Origin: a virus
DNA length: 64,000 nt
Strand: one strand, 5' to 3'
Virus record (IMG/VR): IMGVR_UViG_3300033475_001387
Shown: positions 8,882-62,583 of the stretch, one piece after another
Layout of the letters: each line of letters begins with the position of its first letter
How positions within the stretch are numbered: the first letter of the stretch is position 1
Notes under the pieces: generated by a model
The model's input: only the letters and a program-made list of their open reading frames with translations
The model's database searches: none
Told to the model about the DNA's origin: nothing
Position numbers and translations under genes: made by a program

Positions 8882-9556
8882 ATGTCCACTCTCAGGGAGT
8901 TGTTGGCCCGGAATCTGCCGGGCGTCGACTTGGATGCGGTGCCGCCGCCGGCGAGCGGTCCGCGGCGCCTTTCCGGTGAGGAGCAGGCCGAGCTTTGGCG
9001 TGAGCGGGCCGTGCGCCGGCACCAGCTCCGTGTTCCGGCCCCGTTCGCGGCCGCACGCCTGGACTGCGACACGCCGCGTGAGGTCCGGGCCTGGGTTCAG
9101 GCGCACATCGCCGGTACCGCGGGTGCACGGCATTCGCTGATGCTCTTCGGCCGCGTCGGGCGCGGCAAGACGTGGCTGGCTTACGCGGCACTCGCCGAGA
9201 TCGCCTACGCCGGTGTCCGTAACGCGGCGTGGGCCGGCGGCACGGTGGCCGAGGTGTTTACCAGGATGCGTCCCGGTTCCGGCGAGGACCGCGCGACCGT
9301 GTTCCGTGACCTGGCCGACGCCCCGATCCTGCTGCTCGACGACCTCGGCGCCGCCCGGTCGTCGGACTGGACGGAGGAGACGTTCCTCGACCTGATCGAC
9401 ACGCGCAGCCGCCGCAACGGGCCGGTGATCGTCACCACGAACGCGACCCCGCAGGAGTTGCGGGCCGCCATCGGCGACCGTGCCCTGTCTCGGCTGGCTG
9501 GGATGTGCGTCCAGTACGAGTTCCCCGCCGACGCGCCGGACCGGAGGCTGGCATGA
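8882..9556 (+). CDS. DnaC/IstB-like ATPase (helicase loader)
   Basis: Walker A GRVGRGKT, Walker B LLLDDLG, IVTTN. Confidence 0.88.
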   Translation: MSTLRELLARNLPGVDLDAVPPPASGPRRLSGEEQAELWRERAVRRHQLRVPAPFAAARLDCDTPREVRAWVQAHIAGTAGARHSLMLFGRVGRGKTWLAYAALAEIAYAGVRNAAWAGGTVAEVFTRMRPGSGEDRATVFRDLADAPILLLDDLGAARSSDWTEETFLDLIDTRSRRNGPVIVTTNATPQELRAAIGDRALSRLAGMCVQYEFPADAPDRRLA

Positions 9557-10923
9557 GCGAGCGGGAGATGCCGCACCACGACTTCGCGGAGGCCGCGGCG
9601 CTCGGCGGGATGCTGCTGTCGAAGACCGCGATCGCCGAGGTCATGAAGGTCGCAAAGGCACGGGACTTCTACCACCCGAAGCACGAGCAGATCTTCGACG
9701 CGATCACGACCCTGTACGCGCGCAACGAGCCGGTCGACGCCATCACCGTTTCCCGGGAGCTCGAGAAGCGCGGCGAGCTCACCCGGATCGGCGGGCCCGC
9801 GTACCTGCACACGCTGATGGAGTCCGCGCCGACCGCAGCCAACGCCGGGTACCACGCGGAGATCGTGCACGACCATGCGGTACGCCGCCGCATGATCGAG
9901 GCCGGTGTGCGGATCAGCGCGATGGGCTACGCCACTGACCAGTCCTACGACCTGCCGGAGGTCATCGGCCGGGCGCAGGCCGAGGTGCACGCCCTGTCCC
10001 GTGACCTGCCGGCCGCGGAGTCGACTCCGGGCGGGGCGATGGAGCGTTTCCTCGAGTCGATCGATGAAACCACCGCCCGCGGGCCCGTCCGCTGCATCCC
10101 GACCGGGTTCGCCGACCTCGACGAGCTCACCGGCGGGGGCCTGCACCCCGGGCAGATGGTCGTGGTCGCGGGCAGGCCCGGCCTCGGCAAGTCGACGCTC
10201 GGGGACGACATCGCGCGTGAGGCCTCGATCCGGCATCGCATCCCGGGCATCATCTTCAACTTCGAGATGGGCGAGGACGAGATCGTCCGCAGGCTGATCG
10301 CGGCCGAGGCGAAGGTGCCGCTGCACCACCTGCGCTACGGGAAGATGAGCGAGACTGACTGGAAGCGCATCGCCCAGCGCGGCTATCCCATCCTCGACGC
10401 GCCGCTGACCATCATCGACGACGTCACGCTGTCGATGCTCGACATCGCCTCGATGTGCCGTGAGGCGAAGCGGGAGCGGGACCTCGGCTACGCCGTCATC
10501 GACTACGCGCAACTGCTCAGCTCGGGTACGGGCCGACGGCACGGGACCCGTGAGCAGGAGGTCTCCGAGATCTCCCGCATGACGAAGCTCCTCGCGAAGG
10601 AGCTACAGATCGCGATCGTGTTGATCGCGCAGCTCAACCGCGGGCCGGAGCAGCGCGCAGACAAGAAGCCGCAGATCTCAGACCTGCGCGAGTCCGGTTC
10701 GCTGGAGCAGGACGCGGACACGGTCATCCTGCTGCACCGGCCCGACGCGTACGAGGCTGAGTCTCCGCGCGCCGGCGAAACCGACCTGATCGTCGCGAAG
10801 CACCGCAACGGCCCGTGCGCCACGATCACTGTCGCCGCGCAGCTGCACTACGCGCGCTTCATCGACATGGCGCGCGAGGACGACCGGGCCTGGCAGGACG
10901 CTGTTGCCGGAGGTGTCCGGTGA
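9553..10923 (+). CDS. dnaB: Replicative DNA helicase
   Basis: AGRPGLGKST Walker A, VIDYAQL, AQLNRGPEQR, DLRESGSLEQDAD, IVAKHRNG. Confidence 0.95.
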   Translation: MSEREMPHHDFAEAAALGGMLLSKTAIAEVMKVAKARDFYHPKHEQIFDAITTLYARNEPVDAITVSRELEKRGELTRIGGPAYLHTLMESAPTAANAGYHAEIVHDHAVRRRMIEAGVRISAMGYATDQSYDLPEVIGRAQAEVHALSRDLPAAESTPGGAMERFLESIDETTARGPVRCIPTGFADLDELTGGGLHPGQMVVVAGRPGLGKSTLGDDIAREASIRHRIPGIIFNFEMGEDEIVRRLIAAEAKVPLHHLRYGKMSETDWKRIAQRGYPILDAPLTIIDDVTLSMLDIASMCREAKRERDLGYAVIDYAQLLSSGTGRRHGTREQEVSEISRMTKLLAKELQIAIVLIAQLNRGPEQRADKKPQISDLRESGSLEQDADTVILLHRPDAYEAESPRAGETDLIVAKHRNGPCATITVAAQLHYARFIDMAREDDRAWQDAVAGGVR

Positions 10924-21093: not shown

Positions 21094-21605
21094 TGAACAA
21101 GGCTTACACAGTGGTCGGCTGGTGGGTGGACTCGAACGAGCGGTACGTCGAGGCCTTCGACGCGCCGACCGCCCGCGACGCCGAAGAGGCGATGCTCGAG
21201 CAGGCGCGCGATGAGGCCGGCACGTTCCGGATCGCCGGCACGCTGCTCGGCCAGATCGAGGCCGCCGACACATACACGGCGTTCGTAGACCCCGACGACC
21301 CGGAGAACGAGGCGCGCGAGGACCTCGAGCCAGCGGTCGACGAACTCGGCATGACCGAGTGGACCGTGCTCGGTCTGGTCACAAGCACCCGGCATGGCGA
21401 CCACGACTGGAACGAGGAGACCGGCGGGCAGCGGCACCACACGGTGGAGATGGCGTTGAACCCGCGGATCGCTGAGGACCTGGCGCGCATGGCCGTTCGC
21501 GAGCGCGGCGCGGTCGACCTGACGGTGTGCGCAGTCGTCGCCGGCCGGGTGCACCGCTGCGAGTCGTTCCAGTTCGCCGACCATGACCAGAAGGCCGCCG
21601 CCTGA
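21093..21605 (+). CDS. Hypothetical protein with internal duplication
   Basis: YTVVGWW... and WTVLGLV... halves; TGATG coupling. Confidence 0.6.
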   Translation: MNKAYTVVGWWVDSNERYVEAFDAPTARDAEEAMLEQARDEAGTFRIAGTLLGQIEAADTYTAFVDPDDPENEAREDLEPAVDELGMTEWTVLGLVTSTRHGDHDWNEETGGQRHHTVEMALNPRIAEDLARMAVRERGAVDLTVCAVVAGRVHRCESFQFADHDQKAAA

Positions 21606-21639
21606 CGCAGAAGCTTGAAGTCCGCCCCGGTGCGTTCGC

Positions 21640-21990
21640 GTGCGCACCGGGGCGAACTGGTGGGTGGCCCGCTGCAGTCGGGCCAGGGCCGGACCCGGCG
21701 GGGGGAGACCGGGCGGCCGATCTCAGAGTAACCCCGGACGTGCGTATGCGGAGGATTTCGTGCGCATCCGCACCCGATGGGGTAAAACAGGGATCGTGGA
21801 TGTGCTCCCGCGGGACCTCGCCGACTCGCTCGCTGCCGCGTACGAAGCGAGGCGCAACATCCACTTCGACATCTGCACCGAGTACACGGCGGAGCCCGGG
21901 TTCGGTTGCACCTGCGGTGTGCCGCGGCTGCTCGAGCAACTGGTGGAGGAGCTGGGCCTCCCTGTGGCGGTGCCGGCGGGCGCGGCCTGA
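21640..21990 (+). CDS. Hypothetical protein (start uncertain)
   Basis: HFDIC...CTCG at C-terminus. Confidence 0.4.
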   Translation: MRTGANWWVARCSRARAGPGGGRPGGRSQSNPGRAYAEDFVRIRTRWGKTGIVDVLPRDLADSLAAAYEARRNIHFDICTEYTAEPGFGCTCGVPRLLEQLVEELGLPVAVPAGAA

Positions 21991-22039
21991 GCGTAAAGAA
22001 GTCGATTACCCCACCGATCGTGGGCTACGGTGTGGGTCA

Positions 22040-22110
22040 GGTTCAGGTGTGCAGGGATCGCCTACTTCTTCTGAAAAGGTTATGGCGAACCCGTTCTCGT
22101 TCTCTGGGCC
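22040..22110 (+). ncRNA. Y-RNA-like unit A (short)
   Basis: GTGTGCAGG...TACTTC 5' motif, GGGATCGCC/GGCGAACCC stem, GTTCTC 3' motif, closing stem GGTTCAGG/TCTGGGCC. Confidence 0.55.
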
Positions 22111-22118
22111 GCAGATTT

Positions 22119-22262
22119 GCCCCTGCTGGGTGTGCAGGCGTCGCTTACTTCCGCCTGTTAAGCGGCTGATATCGGTTCGAGTCCGGTCGGCGGCTTCGGC
22201 CGCTGTAGCTCAATCGGCAGAGCAGCTACGTTCGCGGCACCGACTTGTTCTCCGGCAGGGCG
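22119..22262 (+). ncRNA. YrlA-like Y RNA unit B with permuted tRNA domain
   Basis: Order: anticodon-like hairpin (CT-GTT-AA), T arm ATCGG-TTCGAGT-CCGGT, 7-bp acceptor closed by TTCG, D arm GCTC-AATCGGCA-GAGC. Confidence 0.8.
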
Positions 22263-22285
22263 AGCGTTGATAACTGAATATCGCA

Positions 22286-22387
22286 CCTCCCGGTGCGTTG
22301 GCCACGGATTCTTCGGTCGCCAGGGGTTCGCCCCACTTTCCGCGCTCTGACCGGCGCGGGTCCGTAGCCGCTTTGATCTCGGGAGGA
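22286..22387 (+). ncRNA. Y-RNA-like unit C
   Basis: Closing stem CCTCCCGG/CGGGAGG, inner GGCCACGGAT/GTCCGTAGCC, 3' motif CTTTGATCTC. Confidence 0.6.
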
Positions 22388-22396
22388 GAAGCATCG

Positions 22397-22544
22397 GGTC
22401 GCGCCCGGTGCGCAGGCTACGGGTACTTCCTGGATCCAAGGGTCGCTGGTTCGAGTCCAGCCACCGCCCCTCCGTGGGTGGTGTAGCTCAGTTGGCAGAG
22501 CATTGGCACTGTTCCGTCGCCGACTTCTGATCTCGGGCGCGACC
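22397..22544 (+). ncRNA. YrlA-like Y RNA unit D with permuted tRNA domain
   Basis: Closing stem GGTCGCGCCCG/CGGGCGCGACC; T arm GCTGG-TTCGAGT-CCAGC, looped acceptor CACCGCCC/GGGTGGTG, D arm GCTC-AGTTGGCA-GAGC. Confidence 0.8.
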
Positions 22545-22577
22545 GCCGCTCCTCCCGCATTCTCGTGGGAGTAGAGC

Positions 22578-24239
22578 ATGTCGAAGTTCAACCGCAGCAC
22601 CGTCCGGCCGGCTGTCCACTCGCCGGTCACCTCCGAGACCACCCCGTCCGGGCGCACGTTCGAGGGCGGCGCCGGCTACGCGCGAGACGCGAAGTCGGAG
22701 CTGTTCTTGCTCGCGGTCACGAACATGGTCGGCGAGAAGACGTTTTACGAGTCCGCGGAGGCGCGTGACGGCCGATTAGAGGCGCTCGTGCATCGGGTCG
22801 CGGTCGAGGACCCGGACTGGTTCGGCCGGTTCGTGCCGTGGGTGCGCTCGGACGCGAACATGCGCACCGCGTCCCTCGTAGCGGCCGCTGAAGGCGTCAA
22901 GGCGCGGCTCGACGCGGCCAAGGGCAGTGAGGGCCTGGGCACGCAGATGACTGTCGGCCACCAGACCGAGGACCACGCCGCCGGTGGTCAGAACCGCAAG
23001 CTCATCGCGGCCGCGTGCCAGCGTGCGGACGAGCCGGGCGAACTGCTCGCCTACTGGGTTTCCCGGTACGGTCGGACGATCCCGAAGCCGGTCAAGCGCG
23101 GCATCGCTGACGCCGCGGCGCGCCTGTACACCGAGCGCAGCCTCCTGAAGTACGACACCGCGTCCAAGGGCTACCGGTTCGGCGACGTCATCGACCTGAC
23201 GCACCCGGCGCCTGCCGGCGACAAGGCGCTCTGGCAGGGCGAGCTGTTCCGGCACGCCCTGGACCGGCGCCACAACCGCGACAACGGCATCCCCTCGGCG
23301 CTCACGGTCCTGCAGCGCAACGCACTGCTGCGCTCCGAGGGCGAGCCGGCCGACTGGCTGAACCCTGACACGCTCGCCGCGGCCGGGATCACGTGGGAGG
23401 ACGCGCTCTCCGCGGTCGGGTCGAAGGTCGACAAGGCCGCGCTGTGGTCGGCGCTGATCCCGTCGATGGGCTACATGGCGCTGCTGCGGAACCTGCGCAA
23501 CTTCGACGAGGCCGGTGTGCCCGACGCGATCGCGCAGACCGTAGCGGCGCGCCTGGCCGACCCGGCGGAGGTCGCCCGGTCGCGGCAGCTGCCGTTCCGG
23601 TTCCTCTCCGCGTACCGGGCGGCGCCGTCGCTGCGCTGGTCCTACCCGCTCGAGCAGGCGCTCGGCCACGCGCTCGCGAACATCCCCGCGCTGCCCGGTC
23701 GCACGCTAGTCCTCGTAGACACCTCGTCGTCGATGCACGCCGGGTTCTCGAAGGACGGCACGCTCATGCGCTGGGACGCGGCCGCGCTGTTCGGGATCGC
23801 GCTCGGCCAGCGGTGCAAGGCCGCGGACGTGGTGTCGTTCTCCTCGGCGCAGTACTACCACCACGACCCGGTCGGCGCGAAGACGAAGCCGTACCCGCTG
23901 CGCGCAGGCGAGTCGCTGCTCAAGTCGCTGGAGCGGTGGACAGCCGACGGGTACTTCCTCGGCGGCGGCACGGACACGCCCGCGGCGCTGCGCACCGAGT
24001 TCCGCGGCCACGACCGCGTGGTGATTGTCACGGACGAGCAGGCATCGGCGAACAGCGGCGAGGTCACGCAGGCGGTCCCGGGCTCAGTGCCGGTCTACAC
24101 CTGGAACCTGGCCGGCTACCAGTACGGGCACGCCCCGTCCGGCTCGGGCAACCGGCACACGTTCGGCGGGCTCACAGACCAGGCGTTCCGGATGATCCCG
24201 CTGCTCGAGTCGGGTCATGACGCGGTCTGGCCGTTCTGA
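22578..24239 (+). CDS. TROVE-domain RNA-binding protein (Ro60/Rsr ortholog) with VWA domain
   Basis: [62 protein letters not shown]. Confidence 0.92.
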
Positions 24240-24252
24240 CGGCGCACCTCGC

Positions 24253-24288
24253 ACGCTGCCCCCGAGACCTGCGTCTCGGGGGCAGCGT
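24253..24288 (+). terminator. Perfect 16-bp hairpin after TROVE gene
   Basis: ACGCTGCCCCCGAGAC-ctgc-GTCTCGGGGGCAGCGT. Confidence 0.7.
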
Positions 24289-24366
24289 CGTTTGCGGCCC
24301 GATGTGGAGAATCACCCACTGCCACACTGGTCACGGCATATCGCACCTCGAAGGACAGGGCGTCTC

Positions 24367-24570
24367 ATGGCAAACGGCACGGTGAAGTGGTTCAACGCGG
24401 AGAAGGGCTACGGGTTCATCGCCACCCAGTCCGGCCCGGATGTCTTCGTGCACTACAGCGCGATCCAGACCGACGGCTACAGGGAGCTGACCCAGGGCCA
24501 GCAGGTCGAGTACGAGATCGAGCAGGGTCACAGGGGCCCGCAGGCGGCGAACGTCAGGATCCTGAGCTAG
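24367..24570 (+). CDS. cspA: Cold-shock domain protein
   Basis: [15 protein letters not shown]...DVFVHYSAI...GPQAANV. Confidence 0.95.
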
Positions 24571-24787
24571 ACCTCTTCCGCTCCTTGTTGCCGTGCGGCG
24601 GCTTCGGCTGGTGCACGGCAACCTGGTCCGGGACGGTATCAAGGGCAGCGGCTATGGCGTACATGGCCGCTGCCGGGAGCCGTTCGAGCCCGGTCATGGT
24701 CATGTCGAGGCGCTGGAGCGCTGTAGCGAGGCGCGCGAGCGCGTCGCTGTACTGCTTCTCCTGGGTCCGCCGTTGTGGGCCGGTCAC
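24554..24787 (-). CDS. Small hypothetical protein
   Basis: 77 aa; overlaps cspA end, weak support. Confidence 0.35.
24587..24622. terminator. Hairpin at convergence of + and - blocks
   Basis: GTTGCCGTGC/GCACGGCAAC with inner TTCG loop. Confidence 0.45.
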
Positions 24788-24902
24788 GCCGCCTGCTCGG
24801 CGTCGAGGTGTCGCATGGTCTCGTCGAGCGCAAAGGCTCCCGGATCGTCACTGGTCATTGCTTCCAAGTTCCCTGTTCTCAGCCTGCGTATGCCAGGGCC
24901 GG

Positions 24903-38316: not shown

Positions 38317-39645
38317 TCAGCTCGGCGCCATGTCGACGAATCTTGCATAATGGCCTTGAAATGCCACGGTCATGGTCGCGGCTGGCCCGCTGCGATGCTT
38401 CGCGACAATGAAGTCGGCCTCGCCAGCCCGCGGGGATTCGGGCTCGTAGGCTGCTTCGCGGTGCAGCAGGAGCACGACGTCTGCGTTGTCCTCGAGCGTT
38501 CCAGCGTCGCGCAGGTCGGCCATCATCGGCCTCCGGTCGGTGCGCTGCTCGGCGCCGCGGTTGAGCTGGGATACTGCGACGATGGGGATCTCAAGCTCTT
38601 TCGCGAGCTGCTTGAAGCACCGGGCGATCTCGGAGATTTCCAGGTAGCGAGTGTCAAACGGCCTCGTGCCATAGGTCATCATGTTGACGGTGTCGACGAT
38701 GGCCAGGCGTAGGTCGTGGCGGTCGCGTAGGCGGCGAGCCCGCGCCCGGATCTCGGTGAAGGTGAGGTCCGCCGTGTCGTCGATGAATAGCGGGGCTGCA
38801 GAAACCTCACCCATCCGATGGGCCAGCCGGCTCCATTCCTCGTCGGTCATCGTGCCTGAACGGATGTGGTGCAGTGCGACGCGCGACTCCGCGGCAAGAA
38901 GCCGCGTGGTGATCTCGTTGCGCCCCATCTCTAGAGAAAAGATGACCGAAGTCATCCCGTGCTTGATGGAGCACGATCGGGCCAGGTTGAGGGCGAGCAT
39001 GCTCTTTCCCATGGCCGGACGTCCAGCGATGATCACGAGCTGGCCCGGGTGCAGGCCCTGGGTAAGCAAGTCGAGATCGGCGAAGCCGGTGGGCACTCCG
39101 GTCATCTGGCCGGAGCGGTTAGAGATCGACTCGATTTCGTCGAGCGTGCCCTCCATGATGTCCGCCAGAGGCGCATATCCCGTTGGCTCCCGCGCTACGT
39201 CGGTGAGCAGCCGTGTTGCCGCCGCGTAGGTGTCCTCGGACTCGATGGAGCCTGCTGCCCTGGCTTCCGCAGCGATCTGAGCTCCCGCCTGTTCGAGCCG
39301 TCGGAGCAAGCCGCCTCCGCGAACCAGGTCGGCGAGCGACTCGATTTCGCTCGGGGCGCCGACCTTGCGAAGCAGTTCCTGCAGGTATTCCTTACCGCCG
39401 ACCTGAAGGAGCAGGCTGGCGCGATCGAGCCACTCGGCCACGGTGTCGAGGTCAACGGGCCCTCGGGCGAGGTAGACCTCGCAGATGGCGTGGAAGATAT
39501 CGGCATGCGCCGGGGACCGGAAATCTCGCTCCTCGAGCGCTGCGATGGCGTCTGCGATGGCATCCTTCGAGGTCAGCATCGCTCCCAGGAGACCCTGTTC
39601 CGAAGCCTCATCAGGCGAGCCACCTGGGGTCTCGGAATTGGCCAT
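38317..39645 (-). CDS. dnaB: Second replicative DNA helicase
   Basis: IAGRPAMGKS, SQLNRGAEQR, DLRDAGTLEDNAD, IVAKHRSG. Confidence 0.92.
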   Translation of the reverse strand: MANSETPGGSPDEASEQGLLGAMLTSKDAIADAIAALEERDFRSPAHADIFHAICEVYLARGPVDLDTVAEWLDRASLLLQVGGKEYLQELLRKVGAPSEIESLADLVRGGGLLRRLEQAGAQIAAEARAAGSIESEDTYAAATRLLTDVAREPTGYAPLADIMEGTLDEIESISNRSGQMTGVPTGFADLDLLTQGLHPGQLVIIAGRPAMGKSMLALNLARSCSIKHGMTSVIFSLEMGRNEITTRLLAAESRVALHHIRSGTMTDEEWSRLAHRMGEVSAAPLFIDDTADLTFTEIRARARRLRDRHDLRLAIVDTVNMMTYGTRPFDTRYLEISEIARCFKQLAKELEIPIVAVSQLNRGAEQRTDRRPMMADLRDAGTLEDNADVVLLLHREAAYEPESPRAGEADFIVAKHRSGPAATMTVAFQGHYARFVDMAPS

Positions 39646-62219: not shown

Positions 62220-62293
62220 AGCAGGGTAGCGCAGCCGGTTAGCGCGTCGGTTTCATACGTCGAAGGTCGCGGGTTCGAGTCCCGTCCCTGCCC
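62220..62293 (+). tRNA. tRNA-Met(CAT) with A1:C72 mismatch
   Basis: D arm GCGC, loop TT-CAT-AC, T arm GCGGG-TTCGAGT-CCCGT; no encoded CCA. Confidence 0.8.
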
Positions 62294-62295
62294 CC

Positions 62296-62368
62296 GGGGT
62301 TGACGCTGAGGTAGCGGGCCTGTCCTGCAAACAGGCTGCAGTCGGTTCGATTCCGACCTACTCCACCA
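62296..62368 (+). tRNA. Atypical tRNA, Ala(TGC)-like or Cys(GCA)-like
   Basis: G3:U70, A73, CCA; stem CCTGT/ACAGG centres TGC with C33; short D loop. Confidence 0.65.
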
Positions 62369-62395
62369 CTCGGACGACGGAACCGCCCGGGCGCT

Positions 62396-62476
62396 GGCGC
62401 GGCTGCTGGGACAGAACGGGGTCTGTAAAGCCCTGGCCTCCGGGCTCGCTAGGTTCGATTCCTAGACGCGCCACCA
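62396..62476 (+). tRNA. tRNA-Tyr(GTA), long variable arm
   Basis: CT-GTA-AA loop, T arm CTAGG/CCTAG, ACCA end; D arm degenerate. Confidence 0.75.
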
Positions 62477-62500
62477 CGTAGATTCCGCTTCTCCAGCCGC

Positions 62501-62572
62501 GCCGTGTTAGCTCAGTGGGTAGAGCGTCGCTCTCGTAAAGCGGAGGCCAGGGTTCGAACCCCTGACGCGGCT
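62501..62572 (+). tRNA. tRNA-Thr(CGT)
   Basis: Canonical cloverleaf; CT-CGT-AA loop. Confidence 0.88.
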
Positions 62573-62583
62573 CGCCCCGTCGA

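What the first reader, a model, noticed from the sequence alone, without database searches (positions are those of the whole stretch)
22040..22544. Tandem array of four Y-RNA-like genes sharing one scaffold, directly upstream of a Ro60/TROVE gene
Seen: four consecutive units, each closed by its own terminal stem (unit D has a perfect 11 bp), each with a 5' GTG(T/C)G(CA/TT)GG motif followed, after an inner stem, by a TACTTC-like motif, and a 3' pyrimidine-rich G(T/A)TCTC motif. Units B and D insert a circularly permuted tRNA domain (T arm, looped acceptor, D arm); A and C insert unrelated hairpins. Established: bacterial Ro60 (Rsr) genes are flanked by Y RNAs, and YrlA mimics tRNA with a loop-closed acceptor stem. 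Inference: one Ro protein with four interchangeable RNA adaptors, a modular RNP on a mobile element. An annotation pipeline would miss A and C and miscall B and D.
Basis: partly seen in the sequence, partly recalled or inferred. Interest (0 to 1): 0.9.

Follow-up and report, generated by a model that had tools for sequence, protein, structure and literature searches.

The report
Four Y RNA genes before Ro60
Four small structured RNA genes sit head to tail in front of a bacterial Ro60 (Rsr) gene and share one protein-docking stem, a well-conserved but mostly unannotated actinomycete version of the known bacterial Y RNAs, so it is real but an extension of known biology, not a new kind of system.

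Summary
Window 22040-22544 holds four tandem units: A 22040-22110, B 22121-22260, C 22286-22386, D 22397-22544. Each has a closing stem, a GUGYGYW motif, an 8-nt inner stem, a YUACUUC-like motif, a variable insert, and a 3' G.YUU..UCU strand. They end 33 nt before an intact TROVE/Ro60 gene.

B and D carry a T arm, a loop-closed 7-bp acceptor stem and a D arm. They match Rfam YrlA below its cut-off. A and C carry the same scaffold with other inserts.

The scaffold recurs upstream of TROVE genes in 80 actinomycete loci, on the gene's strand, with strong compensatory base changes. Most loci have 2-3 units. Three have 4-5, and so does Streptomyces phage GiJojo, so the four-unit array is high-end, not unique. 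A TAnnnT -10 box lies 11-17 nt before the first unit in 46 of 62 arrays.

These are Y RNA genes: two YrlA-type tRNA mimics and two YrlB-like. They are most likely co-transcribed with rsr and bound by Rsr through the shared stem. Binding and discrete transcripts are untested. The only RNA evidence is one soil metatranscriptome contig identical to 22114-22313.

New detail: in most tRNA-like units of the family, B included, the "V" hairpin behaves as an anticodon arm.

Verdict: new member of a known kind; interest is moderate.

The parts
22026..22031 (+). Promoter-like -10 hexamer TACGGT, 14 nt before unit A
   Evidence: A TAnnnT hexamer starts 11-17 nt before the first unit in 46 of 62 related arrays. 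The consensus promoter scan found nothing at its thresholds. Calling it a promoter is an inference.
22040..22110 (+). Unit A: short Y RNA-like unit (YrlB-like). Closing stem 22040-22046/22104-22110; GUGUGCA 22047-22053; inner stem 22054-22061/22085-22092; pyrimidine-rich apical loop 22062-22084 that starts CUACUUCUUCU.
   Evidence: Detector. Aligns with 12 homologous short units from other genera; 9 of 18 pairs show compensatory changes. The 72-bit model R1 score is by construction, because A was in the training set.
22121..22260 (+). Unit B: YrlA-type tRNA mimic with an anticodon-like arm. Closing stem 22121-22129/22252-22260; GUGUGCA 22130-22136; inner stem 22137-22144/22234-22241; UUACUU 22145-22150; hairpin CCGC-CUGUUAA-GCGG 22151-22165; T arm 22171-22187; acceptor 22188-22194/22199-22205 closed by UUCG; D arm 22208-22223.
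   Evidence: Rfam YrlA partial match 22167-22223, 27.3 bits. ARAGORN miscalls 22119-22195 as tRNA-Asn(gtt). Rfam tRNA scores 26.6, below its 29-bit cut-off, with no D arm in place. Aligns in A3. Anticodon-arm analysis. A metatranscriptome contig is identical over 22114-22313.
22286..22386 (+). Unit C: Y RNA-like unit with a two-hairpin insert. Closing stem 22286-22292/22380-22386 (CCUCCCG/CGGGAGG); GUGCGUU 22293-22299; inner stem 22300-22307/22362-22369; insert 22308-22361 holding GGGG-UUCG-CCCC and a second hairpin.
   Evidence: Model R1 scores 53.4 bits, E 1e-10, and C was not in its training set. Aligns with 12 homologues, most of which carry a T-arm-like hairpin at the second position. MFE fold.
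22397..22544 (+). Unit D: YrlA-type tRNA mimic without the anticodon hairpin. Closing stem 22397-22407/22534-22544 (11 bp); GUGCGCA 22408-22414; inner stem 22415-22422/22514-22521; GUACUUC 22423-22429; 4-bp stem CCAA 22436-22439 / UUGG 22503-22506; T arm 22445-22461; acceptor 22462-22468/22477-22483; D arm 22486-22501.
   Evidence: Rfam YrlA full-length match 22419-22526, 39.2 bits, E 5e-7. Model R1 scores 51.4 bits, E 3e-10. Alignment and covariation. Fold z-score -2.9.
22578..24239 (+). TROVE/Ro60 (Rsr) gene, 553 aa, intact
   Evidence: Pfam TROVE, E 3.4e-17. Full-length matches at 57-67% identity to 80 actinomycete homologues. 40-47% identity to the 'Ro-like RNA binding protein' of actinophages.
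24255..24286 (+). 14-bp G+C-rich hairpin after the TROVE stop codon; likely end of the operon
   Evidence: Read directly from the sequence. It has no U tract, so the terminator scan does not list it. Calling it a terminator is an inference.

Best explanation
The region is an operon of four Y RNA genes followed by rsr (Ro60).

Shown:
- All four units share a conserved module: a closing stem ending ...CCCG/CGGG..., a 5' GUGCGCA-type strand opposite a 3' GAYUU(N)GAUCU strand, an 8-bp GG....GG/CC....CC inner stem, and then YUACUUC.
- The module recurs, with compensatory changes, upstream of rsr in many actinomycetes, their plasmids and phages.
- B and D add a tRNA-like domain (T arm, loop-closed 7-bp acceptor, D arm). 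A and C add other apical elements.

Inferred:
- A promoter just upstream of A drives one transcript through A-B-C-D and rsr to the hairpin at 24255-24286. RNases then trim it to four RNAs of about 71, 140, 101 and 148 nt, as reported for M. smegmatis YrlA and YrlB.
- Each RNA docks on the outer face of the Rsr ring through the shared module. Its 5' strand, GGUGCGCAGG, resembles the GGUCCGAAGG strand that Ro60 contacts in vertebrate Y RNAs.
- The different apical modules bring or exclude different partners: tRNA-binding proteins for B and D, PNPase-like single-strand binders for the pyrimidine-rich loop of A.
- The result would be a gated and retargeted Rsr, acting in structured-RNA decay or repair under stress, here carried on a plasmid- or ICE-like element.
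For: - Position and strand: the units end 33 nt before an intact TROVE gene.
- Family matches: Rfam YrlA matches B and D. Model R1 matches C and D.
- Specificity across genomes: R1 gives 159 matches at E<=0.01 in 80 TROVE loci. All are on the gene's strand, and all but one lie within about 800 nt upstream.
- Covariation in 67 tRNA-like units: 99.2% of cells paired against 78.5% in shuffles. 22 of 33 pairs have double-sided changes. The covariation score is 0.50 against 0.13 in shuffles (reached in 0 of 500) and at most 0.10 with slid partners.
- Short and C-type units: scaffold pairs with compensatory changes.
- Chance control.
- Promoter: a conserved -10 box lies before the first unit.
- Age of the copies: B and D are 57% identical to each other but 68-69% identical to units in other genomes. 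They are old paralogues, not recent duplicates.
- RNA: a 200-nt soil metatranscriptome contig is identical to 22114-22313, while the flanking genes are not covered.
- Link to experiment: the published M. smegmatis YrlA and YrlB probe sequences contain UUAC-CA-CUUCUAA-UGG and GACUUC...GGUUCGA, the same motifs as here. Those RNAs were immunoprecipitated with Rsr (PMC4201824).
- Vertebrate Y1 ends GGCTGGTCCGAAGG and CACTTGACTAGTCT (PMC3928194) resemble the two scaffold strands.
Against: - No experiment on these RNAs. Binding to Rsr, processing and RNA ends are all inferred.
- Both YrlA matches are far below Rfam's gathering score.
- The 5' motif differs at two positions from the published GNCGAAN0-1G.
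- Helices 1 and 2 of alignment A3 were partly selected for pairing by the detector, so their statistics are inflated. The T, acceptor and D helices were not selected.
- The metatranscriptome evidence is one contig, from assembled contigs, in a library that can contain DNA. It spans a spacer, so it shows no discrete RNA.
- The 80 loci are related, so counts are not independent events.
- Unit B's scaffold is weak by the covariance model.
Confidence: 0.82

Rival explanations
1. The array is mainly a cis-acting structured 5' leader of the rsr mRNA. Rsr would bind the four scaffold copies in its own leader and repress or stabilise its own message (autoregulation). Stable trans-acting RNAs would not be the main product.
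For: Unit D ends only 33 nt before the start codon. No terminator-like site lies between the units and rsr. A single promoter-like box sits before the first unit. The metatranscriptome contig runs across the B-C spacer.
Against: In M. smegmatis the equivalent RNAs accumulate as discrete Rsr-bound species cut from the precursor (PMC4201824). The apical modules are conserved with covariation (T, D and acceptor helices), which a mere Rsr-binding leader would not need. In Salmonella the Y RNAs lie 3' of rsr (10.1101/312249). This rival is not exclusive of the main explanation.
Confidence: 0.1
2. B and D are decayed or rearranged tRNA genes (remnants of a tRNA cluster on a mobile element), and A and C are incidental G+C-rich hairpins. 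There would be no dedicated function with Ro60.
For: ARAGORN calls 22119-22195 a tRNA-Asn. Part of B is 82% identical over 72 nt to a phage tRNA-Asn (H18). The element has a real tRNA cluster at 62.2-62.6 kb. YrlA RNAs have been proposed to descend from dimeric tRNA transcripts (10.1101/312249).
Against: The arm order is T, then closed acceptor, then D. The Rfam tRNA score is below its cut-off and the called gene has no D arm. The same non-tRNA scaffold flanks all four units and recurs with compensatory changes upstream of TROVE genes in 80 loci, on one strand only. A and C have homologues in other genera.
Confidence: 0.03
3. The units are functional RNAs but work without Rsr, for example as decoys or substrates for tRNA-modifying or tRNA-cleaving enzymes, and are only co-located with rsr.
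For: The tRNA-like core is the best-conserved part. An anticodon-like loop with U33 and A37-A38 is kept in most units. No binding data exist for this clade.
Against: A and C lack a tRNA body yet keep the scaffold. The scaffold strands resemble the Ro60-contacted strand of vertebrate Y RNAs. Strict linkage and co-orientation with TROVE genes. M. smegmatis relatives co-precipitate with Rsr.
Confidence: 0.05

Closest known systems
YrlA (Rfam RF02553), the tRNA-like bacterial Y RNA of Salmonella, M. smegmatis and many other bacteria and phages (Chen et al. 2014, PMC4201824; Wang et al. 2018, bioRxiv 10.1101/312249)
   Same: Units B and D share these features: location next to rsr on the same strand; 5' and 3' ends paired in a long stem; a YUAY motif; the order T arm, loop-closed acceptor stem, D arm, with tRNA-like conserved nucleotides; and a 7-bp acceptor as in M. 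smegmatis YrlA. Unit D has the Salmonella-like 4-bp stem that links the tRNA core to the Ro-binding stem.
   Different: Scores are below Rfam's cut-off (39 and 27 bits against 69). There are two YrlA-type units in one array. The 5' motif is GGUGCGCAGG, not GNCGAAN0-1G, and a conserved 3' strand (GAYUU.GAUCU) is also recognisable. Unit B and most relatives carry a 5-bp/7-nt-loop hairpin whose covariation fits an anticodon arm, whereas Salmonella YrlA 'lacks the anticodon loop' and the hairpin was earlier read as a variable arm.
M. smegmatis YrlB, Salmonella YrlB and D. radiodurans Yrn2 (second Y RNAs of a locus; Chen et al. 2014)
   Same: Units A and C share the Rsr-docking stem but not the full tRNA body. 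A has a pyrimidine-rich apical loop. C-type homologues carry a lone T-arm-like hairpin, as reported for M. smegmatis YrlB. They are encoded in the same upstream transcript.
   Different: There is no Rfam model and no sequence-level proof of orthology to the published YrlB RNAs; only probe fragments could be compared. The window's own C has a degenerate second hairpin instead of a clear T arm. The window has two such units, not one.
Metazoan Y RNAs (hY1, hY3, hY4, hY5) bound by Ro60
   Same: Several paralogous RNAs share one Ro60-binding stem and differ in the loop module. The scaffold strands (CCGGUGCGCAGG and GACUUGAUCUCG) resemble the Y1 ends (CUGGUCCGAAGG and CACUUGACUAG).
   Different: Metazoan Y RNAs are separate Pol III genes. 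They have no tRNA-like domain, and their bulged-helix register differs. The resemblance is a lead, not a tested homology.
Thermus phage phiLo Yrl1 and Yrl2 with phage Ro60 (PMC12135203)
   Same: Y RNA-like genes lie upstream of a Ro60 gene on a mobile genome, with a stem-bulge-stem layout. Binding to Ro60 and to host PNPase was shown there.
   Different: There are two units, not four. They use a CGAA motif, no tRNA-like domain is described, and the host lineage is unrelated.

Membership tests
Bacterial Y RNA, YrlA type (RF02553) | Encoded within about 4 kb of a Ro60/TROVE gene on the same strand | tested here: met
   Units at 22040-22544 (+); TROVE gene at 22578-24239 (+).
Bacterial Y RNA, YrlA type (RF02553) | T arm, loop-closed acceptor stem and D arm in that order, with tRNA-like conserved nucleotides | tested here: met
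   Present in B and D. In 67 relatives all three helices show compensatory changes: T 3 of 5 pairs, acceptor 7 of 7, D 2 of 4.
Bacterial Y RNA, YrlA type (RF02553) | Score at or above Rfam's gathering threshold (69 bits) | tested here: not met
   D scores 39.2 bits (E 5e-7) and B 27.3 bits (E 0.0014). All actinomycete, plasmid and phage relatives tested also fall below it, at 26-52 bits. The threshold looks too strict for this clade.
Bacterial Y RNA, YrlA type (RF02553) | 5' and 3' ends pair into a long stem carrying the Ro-binding motif GNCGAAN0-1G (related to GGUCCGA) | tested here: inconclusive
   The long stem is present with covariation. The motif here is (G)GUGCGCAGG, which differs at two positions from GNCGAANG and matches 8 of 10 positions of vertebrate GGUCCGAAGG.
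Bacterial Y RNA, YrlA type (RF02553) | Conserved YUAY after the Ro-binding stem | tested here: met
   CUAC in A, UUAC in B, GUAC in D, AUUC in C. UUAC is the family consensus.
Bacterial Y RNA (any type) | Bound and stabilised by Rsr/Ro60 in vivo | not testable with these tools
   Needs pull-down or EMSA. Only indirect support: shared motifs with the Rsr-bound M. smegmatis RNAs.
Bacterial Y RNA (any type) | Accumulates as a discrete small RNA | tested here: inconclusive
   One 200-nt metatranscriptome contig is identical to 22114-22313. Contigs cannot show RNA ends, and DNA carry-over is possible.
YrlB-like second Y RNA | Shares the Rsr-binding stem of the locus's YrlA but lacks the full tRNA-like domain | tested here: met
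   A and C carry the scaffold. They have no D arm or acceptor stem.
tRNA | Cloverleaf in the order acceptor, D, anticodon, T, acceptor, with free ends, and a score above the Rfam tRNA cut-off | tested here: not met
   Rfam tRNA scores 26.6 against a 29-bit cut-off, with no D arm in place. The acceptor is closed by UUCG and the D arm lies 3' of it. The ARAGORN call at 22119-22195 is a miscall.

The most novel reading that the evidence does not exclude
In this actinomycete clade the tRNA-like Y RNAs are nearly complete, circularly permuted tRNAs. They keep a true anticodon arm: a 5-bp stem and a 7-nt loop C-U-N-N-N-A-A, usually with U36-A37. The Ro-binding stem enters through the 5' strand of the anticodon stem. 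On mobile elements such as this one, several such RNAs, with different 'anticodons' and different apical modules, would let one Rsr ring act as a decoy, sensor or repair platform for enzymes that read anticodon loops. Those enzymes could be anticodon nucleases of defence systems or modification enzymes. That would link Ro/Y RNPs to the conflict between mobile elements and hosts over tRNA.
Probability: 0.12. Interest if true: 0.7.

Novelty: new member of a known kind. Interest (0 to 1): 0.4.

Why it matters
Bacterial Ro60/Y RNA particles are still poorly understood, and only a handful of Y RNAs have been studied. This locus and its roughly 80 relatives give three things.

1. A sharply defined, covarying Rsr-docking module for actinomycetes. 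It could seed a covariance model that recovers the Y RNAs current pipelines miss or miscall as tRNA-Asn or tRNA-Arg, including in deposited phage genomes.
2. Natural arrays of 1-5 Y RNAs with distinct apical modules. These are a ready-made test bed for the adaptor/tether model.
3. Comparative evidence that the hairpin called the 'V' arm of YrlA behaves as an anticodon arm in this clade. This bears on the proposed tRNA origin of YrlA and on which tRNA-binding proteins are its partners.

None of this overturns current views. It extends them.

Tried and rejected
- Rfam at gathering thresholds over the whole window finds only three tRNAs at 62.2-62.6 kb and none of the four units.
- The consensus promoter/terminator scan of 21500-24800 finds nothing. 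The -10 box was found only by comparing loci.
- Folding the whole 531-nt region gives a weak z-score of -1.6. Single units give -1.6 to -2.9. Thermodynamics alone does not establish the structures.
- No whole genome is held for the window. There is no near-identical phage record, and plasmid records match only at gene level. The replicon stays unidentified.
- PHROGs gives nothing informative for the ORFs just upstream.
- Model R1 misses unit B with default filters. With filters off it gives only a partial 10-bit match. B is supported by the detector, the Rfam YrlA match and alignment A3.
- The M. smegmatis rsr locus could not be fetched for direct comparison. Comparison rests on the probe sequences printed in PMC4201824.
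- Two reviews (PMC10870794, PMC6542706) are not held.
- Rejected readings: real tRNA genes (wrong arm order, closed acceptor); chance hairpins; recent tandem duplication (B and D are only 57% identical).
- Complex prediction was not used, because it does not take RNA partners.
Full report
**The observation**

The stretch 22040-22544 lies between a small ORF that ends at 21990 and a 553-aa gene (22578-24239, + strand) with a Pfam TROVE domain (E 3.4e-17). A cold-shock protein gene follows at 24367-24570.

Reading the sequence and running a purpose-written detector gives four units with the same layout:
- A, 22040-22110, 71 nt
- B, 22121-22260, 140 nt
- C, 22286-22386, 101 nt
- D, 22397-22544, 148 nt

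Each unit has, in order:
- a closing stem of 7, 9, 7 and 11 bp for A, B, C and D;
- a seven-base strand GUGUGCA / GUGUGCA / GUGCGUU / GUGCGCA;
- an 8-nt inner stem with 7 of 8 pairs;
- a YUACUUC-like motif;
- an insert of 23, 89, 54 and 91 nt;
- the 3' half of the inner stem;
- a 10-12 nt pyrimidine-rich strand ending in UCU;
- the 3' half of the closing stem.

**Family matches in the window**

At Rfam's gathering thresholds nothing is reported here. With E-value thresholds:
- YrlA (RF02553) matches D over its full length (22419-22526, 39.2 bits, E 5e-7).
- YrlA matches the T-acceptor-D core of B (22167-22223, 27.3 bits, E 0.0014).
- The tRNA model scores 26.6 bits on part of B, below its 29-bit cut-off and with the D arm missing.

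ARAGORN calls 22119-22195 a tRNA-Asn(gtt). That is a miscall: it joins B's anticodon-like hairpin and T arm to unrelated flanks.

**Comparative evidence**

The TROVE protein has full-length relatives at 57-67% identity in 80 actinomycete genomes, including Microbispora, Micromonospora, Nocardiopsis, Streptomyces, Amycolatopsis, Nocardia and Glycomyces. In their upstream regions the 5' motif, the ACUUC motif about 16 nt later, the T-arm and D-arm sequences and the 3' GAUCU motif recur at fixed distances from the start codon.

Detector results:
- It finds 111 full scaffolds at 153 motif matches upstream of TROVE.
- After shuffling the downstream sequence the rate is 12%.
- Elsewhere in the loci it finds 61 at 517 motif matches.
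- On the minus strand it finds 3 at 34.

Laid side by side, the units give a sharp consensus...CCCG | GUGCGCA | GG-N4-GG | UUACUUC ... CC-N4-CC | GAYUU(N)GAUCU | CGGG...

Three insert classes recur across genera:
- about 22 nt, as in A;
- about 52 nt, as in C;
- 85-95 nt and tRNA-like, as in B and D.

RNAalifold on the three class alignments recovers the closing and inner stems, with compensatory changes in 9 of 18 (short class) and 5 of 18 (C class) pairs. For the 67 tRNA-like units it also recovers the T arm, a 7-bp loop-closed acceptor and the D arm, with compensatory changes in 22 of 33 pairs.

Counting pairs on that structure:

| Measure | Observed | Control |
|---|---|---|
| Cells paired | 99.2% | 78.5% in shuffles |
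| Covariation score | 0.50 | 0.13 in shuffles (reached in 0 of 500) |
| Covariation score with partners slid 1-3 columns | – | at most 0.10 |

One caveat applies. The closing and inner stems were partly selected for by the detector. The T, acceptor and D helices were not.

A covariance model built from the 13 short units (R1) finds C at 53.4 bits and D at 51.4 bits in the window. Neither was in its training set. Nothing else in the 64 kb scores better than E 0.1. In the 80 loci it gives 159 matches at E<=0.01. All are on the TROVE strand, and all but one lie within about 800 nt upstream.

**Array size**

I merged the model and detector hits by hand to count units per locus. The counts are approximate.

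| Units per locus | Number of loci |
|---|---|
| 1 | 11 |
| 2 (one of them possibly 3) | 49 |
| 3 | 17 |
| 4 | 2 (L032 Glycomyces albidus, L079 Thermocatellispora) |
| 5 | 1 (L034 Nocardia) |

Mobile genomes show the same pattern:
- A Rhodococcus plasmid has three units.
- Gordonia phage VanLee has three. Its annotated tRNA-Arg(tct) is in fact the anticodon-like hairpin plus T arm of a YrlA-type unit.
- Streptomyces phage GiJojo shows four GAUGCGYAG...UUACUUC units by eye. An annotated tRNA-Arg(cct) lies within the last of them.

A four-unit array is therefore at the high end but not unique. B and D are only 57% identical to each other, while each is 68-69% identical to units of other genomes. 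They are old paralogues, not a recent duplication.

**Anatomy of the tRNA-like units**

After UUACUU most relatives have a hairpin with a 7-nt loop. Across 51 distinct sequences the loop reads C32 (45), U33 (50), N, N, U36 (32), A37 (41), A38 (47).

The covariation splits the stem in two:
- Positions 29-31 covary with 39-41 inside the hairpin.
- Positions 42-43 covary with the two bases that follow the D arm and one spacer. At 27-43 the pairs are C-G 31, G-C 15 and U-A 1 (47 of 51 paired). At 28-42, 48 of 51 are paired. Sliding the partner drops the first three pairs from 133 to 64-82 of 153.
- Positions 42-43 do not covary with the invariant UU of UACUU.

The simplest reading is a composite anticodon arm, with the Ro-binding stem entering between positions 28 and 29.

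B fits this reading (CCGC-CUGUUAA-GCGG, then G-C and C-G with the GC that follows the D arm). D lacks the hairpin. It has the 4-bp CCAA/UUGG stem that Rfam aligns to the Salmonella 'anticodon stem'.

Published work describes Salmonella YrlA as lacking an anticodon loop and calls the extra hairpin of other YrlAs a variable arm. This reading is therefore a refinement that needs structure probing.

**Transcription**

No terminator-like site separates the units from rsr. A TAnnnT hexamer starts 11-17 nt before the first unit in 46 of 62 arrays. In about 70% G+C DNA this is far more than chance would give; that expectation is my own rough estimate, not a computed control. Here the hexamer is TACGGT at 22026-22031.

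A 14-bp hairpin follows the rsr stop codon at 24255-24286. One soil metatranscriptome run holds a single 200-nt contig identical to 22114-22313 (unit B, the spacer and the start of C). It holds nothing on rsr or the flanks. This is compatible with an abundant precursor or small RNA. It is weak evidence, because contigs show no ends and DNA can contaminate such libraries.

**What it is and how it most likely works**

Bacterial Y RNAs are known to have these properties (PMC4201824; 10.1101/312249; PMC12135203):
- they lie beside rsr;
- they are modular, with a Ro-binding stem plus an effector module;
- each locus includes a tRNA-like YrlA and a second RNA;
- in M. smegmatis they are cut from one precursor upstream of rsr and co-precipitate with Rsr.

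The published M. smegmatis probes contain the same UUAC...CUUCUAA...UGG and GACUUC...GGUUCGA motifs.

The scaffold's 5' strand, CCGGUGCGCAGG, matches 9 of 12 positions of vertebrate Y1 CUGGUCCGAAGG, the strand Ro60 contacts. The 3' strand shares ACUUGA with Y1's CACUUGACUAG.

I therefore read the region as four Y RNA genes: two YrlA-type and two YrlB-like. They are probably co-transcribed with rsr. Each would dock on Rsr through the shared module and offer a different apical module to partners.

Shown here: the structures, their conservation, their linkage to rsr and the promoter-like box. Inferred: Rsr binding, processing and partner choice.

**Context**

The window also encodes DNA methylases, a RepB-primase-like protein, two DnaB helicases, WhiB, Ku, DprA, a NUDIX protein, DUF2637 and a TraB-like FtsK/SpoIIIE protein. 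It also carries a tRNA cluster. This fits an actinomycete plasmid or integrative conjugative element. TROVE genes are common on plasmids and phages. I could not identify the replicon.

**Verdict**

The finding is real and well supported by comparison. It belongs to a known kind of system. The array size, the sharply conserved two-strand docking module and the anticodon-arm reading are useful extensions.

Noticed in passing
window 21623-21654: An intergenic palindromic hairpin, CGCCCCGGUGCG..CGCACCGGGGCG, whose arm contains CCCGGUGCG, the same bases as the 5' strand of the Y RNA scaffold. Model R1 gives it weak matches on both strands (E 0.0025-0.11). It may be a terminator or a coincidence.
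   Followed up: partly
L082 (Streptomyces phage GiJojo, PP725410.1) 920-1420; L083 (Gordonia phage VanLee, MZ028627.1) 1050-1440: The deposited phage genomes annotate tRNA-Arg(cct) and tRNA-Arg(tct) just upstream of their Ro-like genes. In VanLee the call covers the anticodon-like hairpin plus T arm of a YrlA-type unit. GiJojo shows four scaffold units by eye. These tRNA annotations are probably wrong.
   Followed up: partly
about -45 to -30 relative to the first unit in many of loci L001-L080 (listing); window 21995-22010: Upstream of the -10 box many arrays share a GAAAA.CGG..TGA-like motif (for example ggaaaaccggttgatc and ggatattcggtt). It could be the -35 region or an operator site. The window has gtaaagaagtcgattac there.
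   Followed up: no
L043 5498-5637: One scaffold match (51.6 bits) lies downstream of the TROVE gene in a Nocardia locus instead of upstream. It may be a displaced unit or belong to a second locus.
   Followed up: no
window 62220-62573: A tRNA cluster. Rfam finds three tRNAs above its threshold, one of them at only 36 bits. ARAGORN calls four (Met, Ala, Tyr, Thr); the Tyr call at 62396-62476 is not supported by Rfam at gathering score.
   Followed up: no
window 9505-10923 (+) and 38317-39645 (-): Two full-length DnaB-type replicative helicase genes lie in one 64-kb stretch on opposite strands. This suggests a composite of two replicons or elements.
   Followed up: no
window 22114-22313: A 200-nt contig of a soil metatranscriptome run (X1) is identical to this stretch, so the element or a near-identical one lives in soil. 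A soil metagenome run (X2) holds only 90-95% relatives of the conserved parts.
   Followed up: partly
G001 (genome of L034) contig C4 126732-126883: A further YrlA-like match (32 bits) lies on a different contig from the TROVE locus examined. It hints at a second Ro/Y RNA locus in that Nocardia genome. One Micromonospora assembly also has two TROVE loci (L004 and L063).
   Followed up: no
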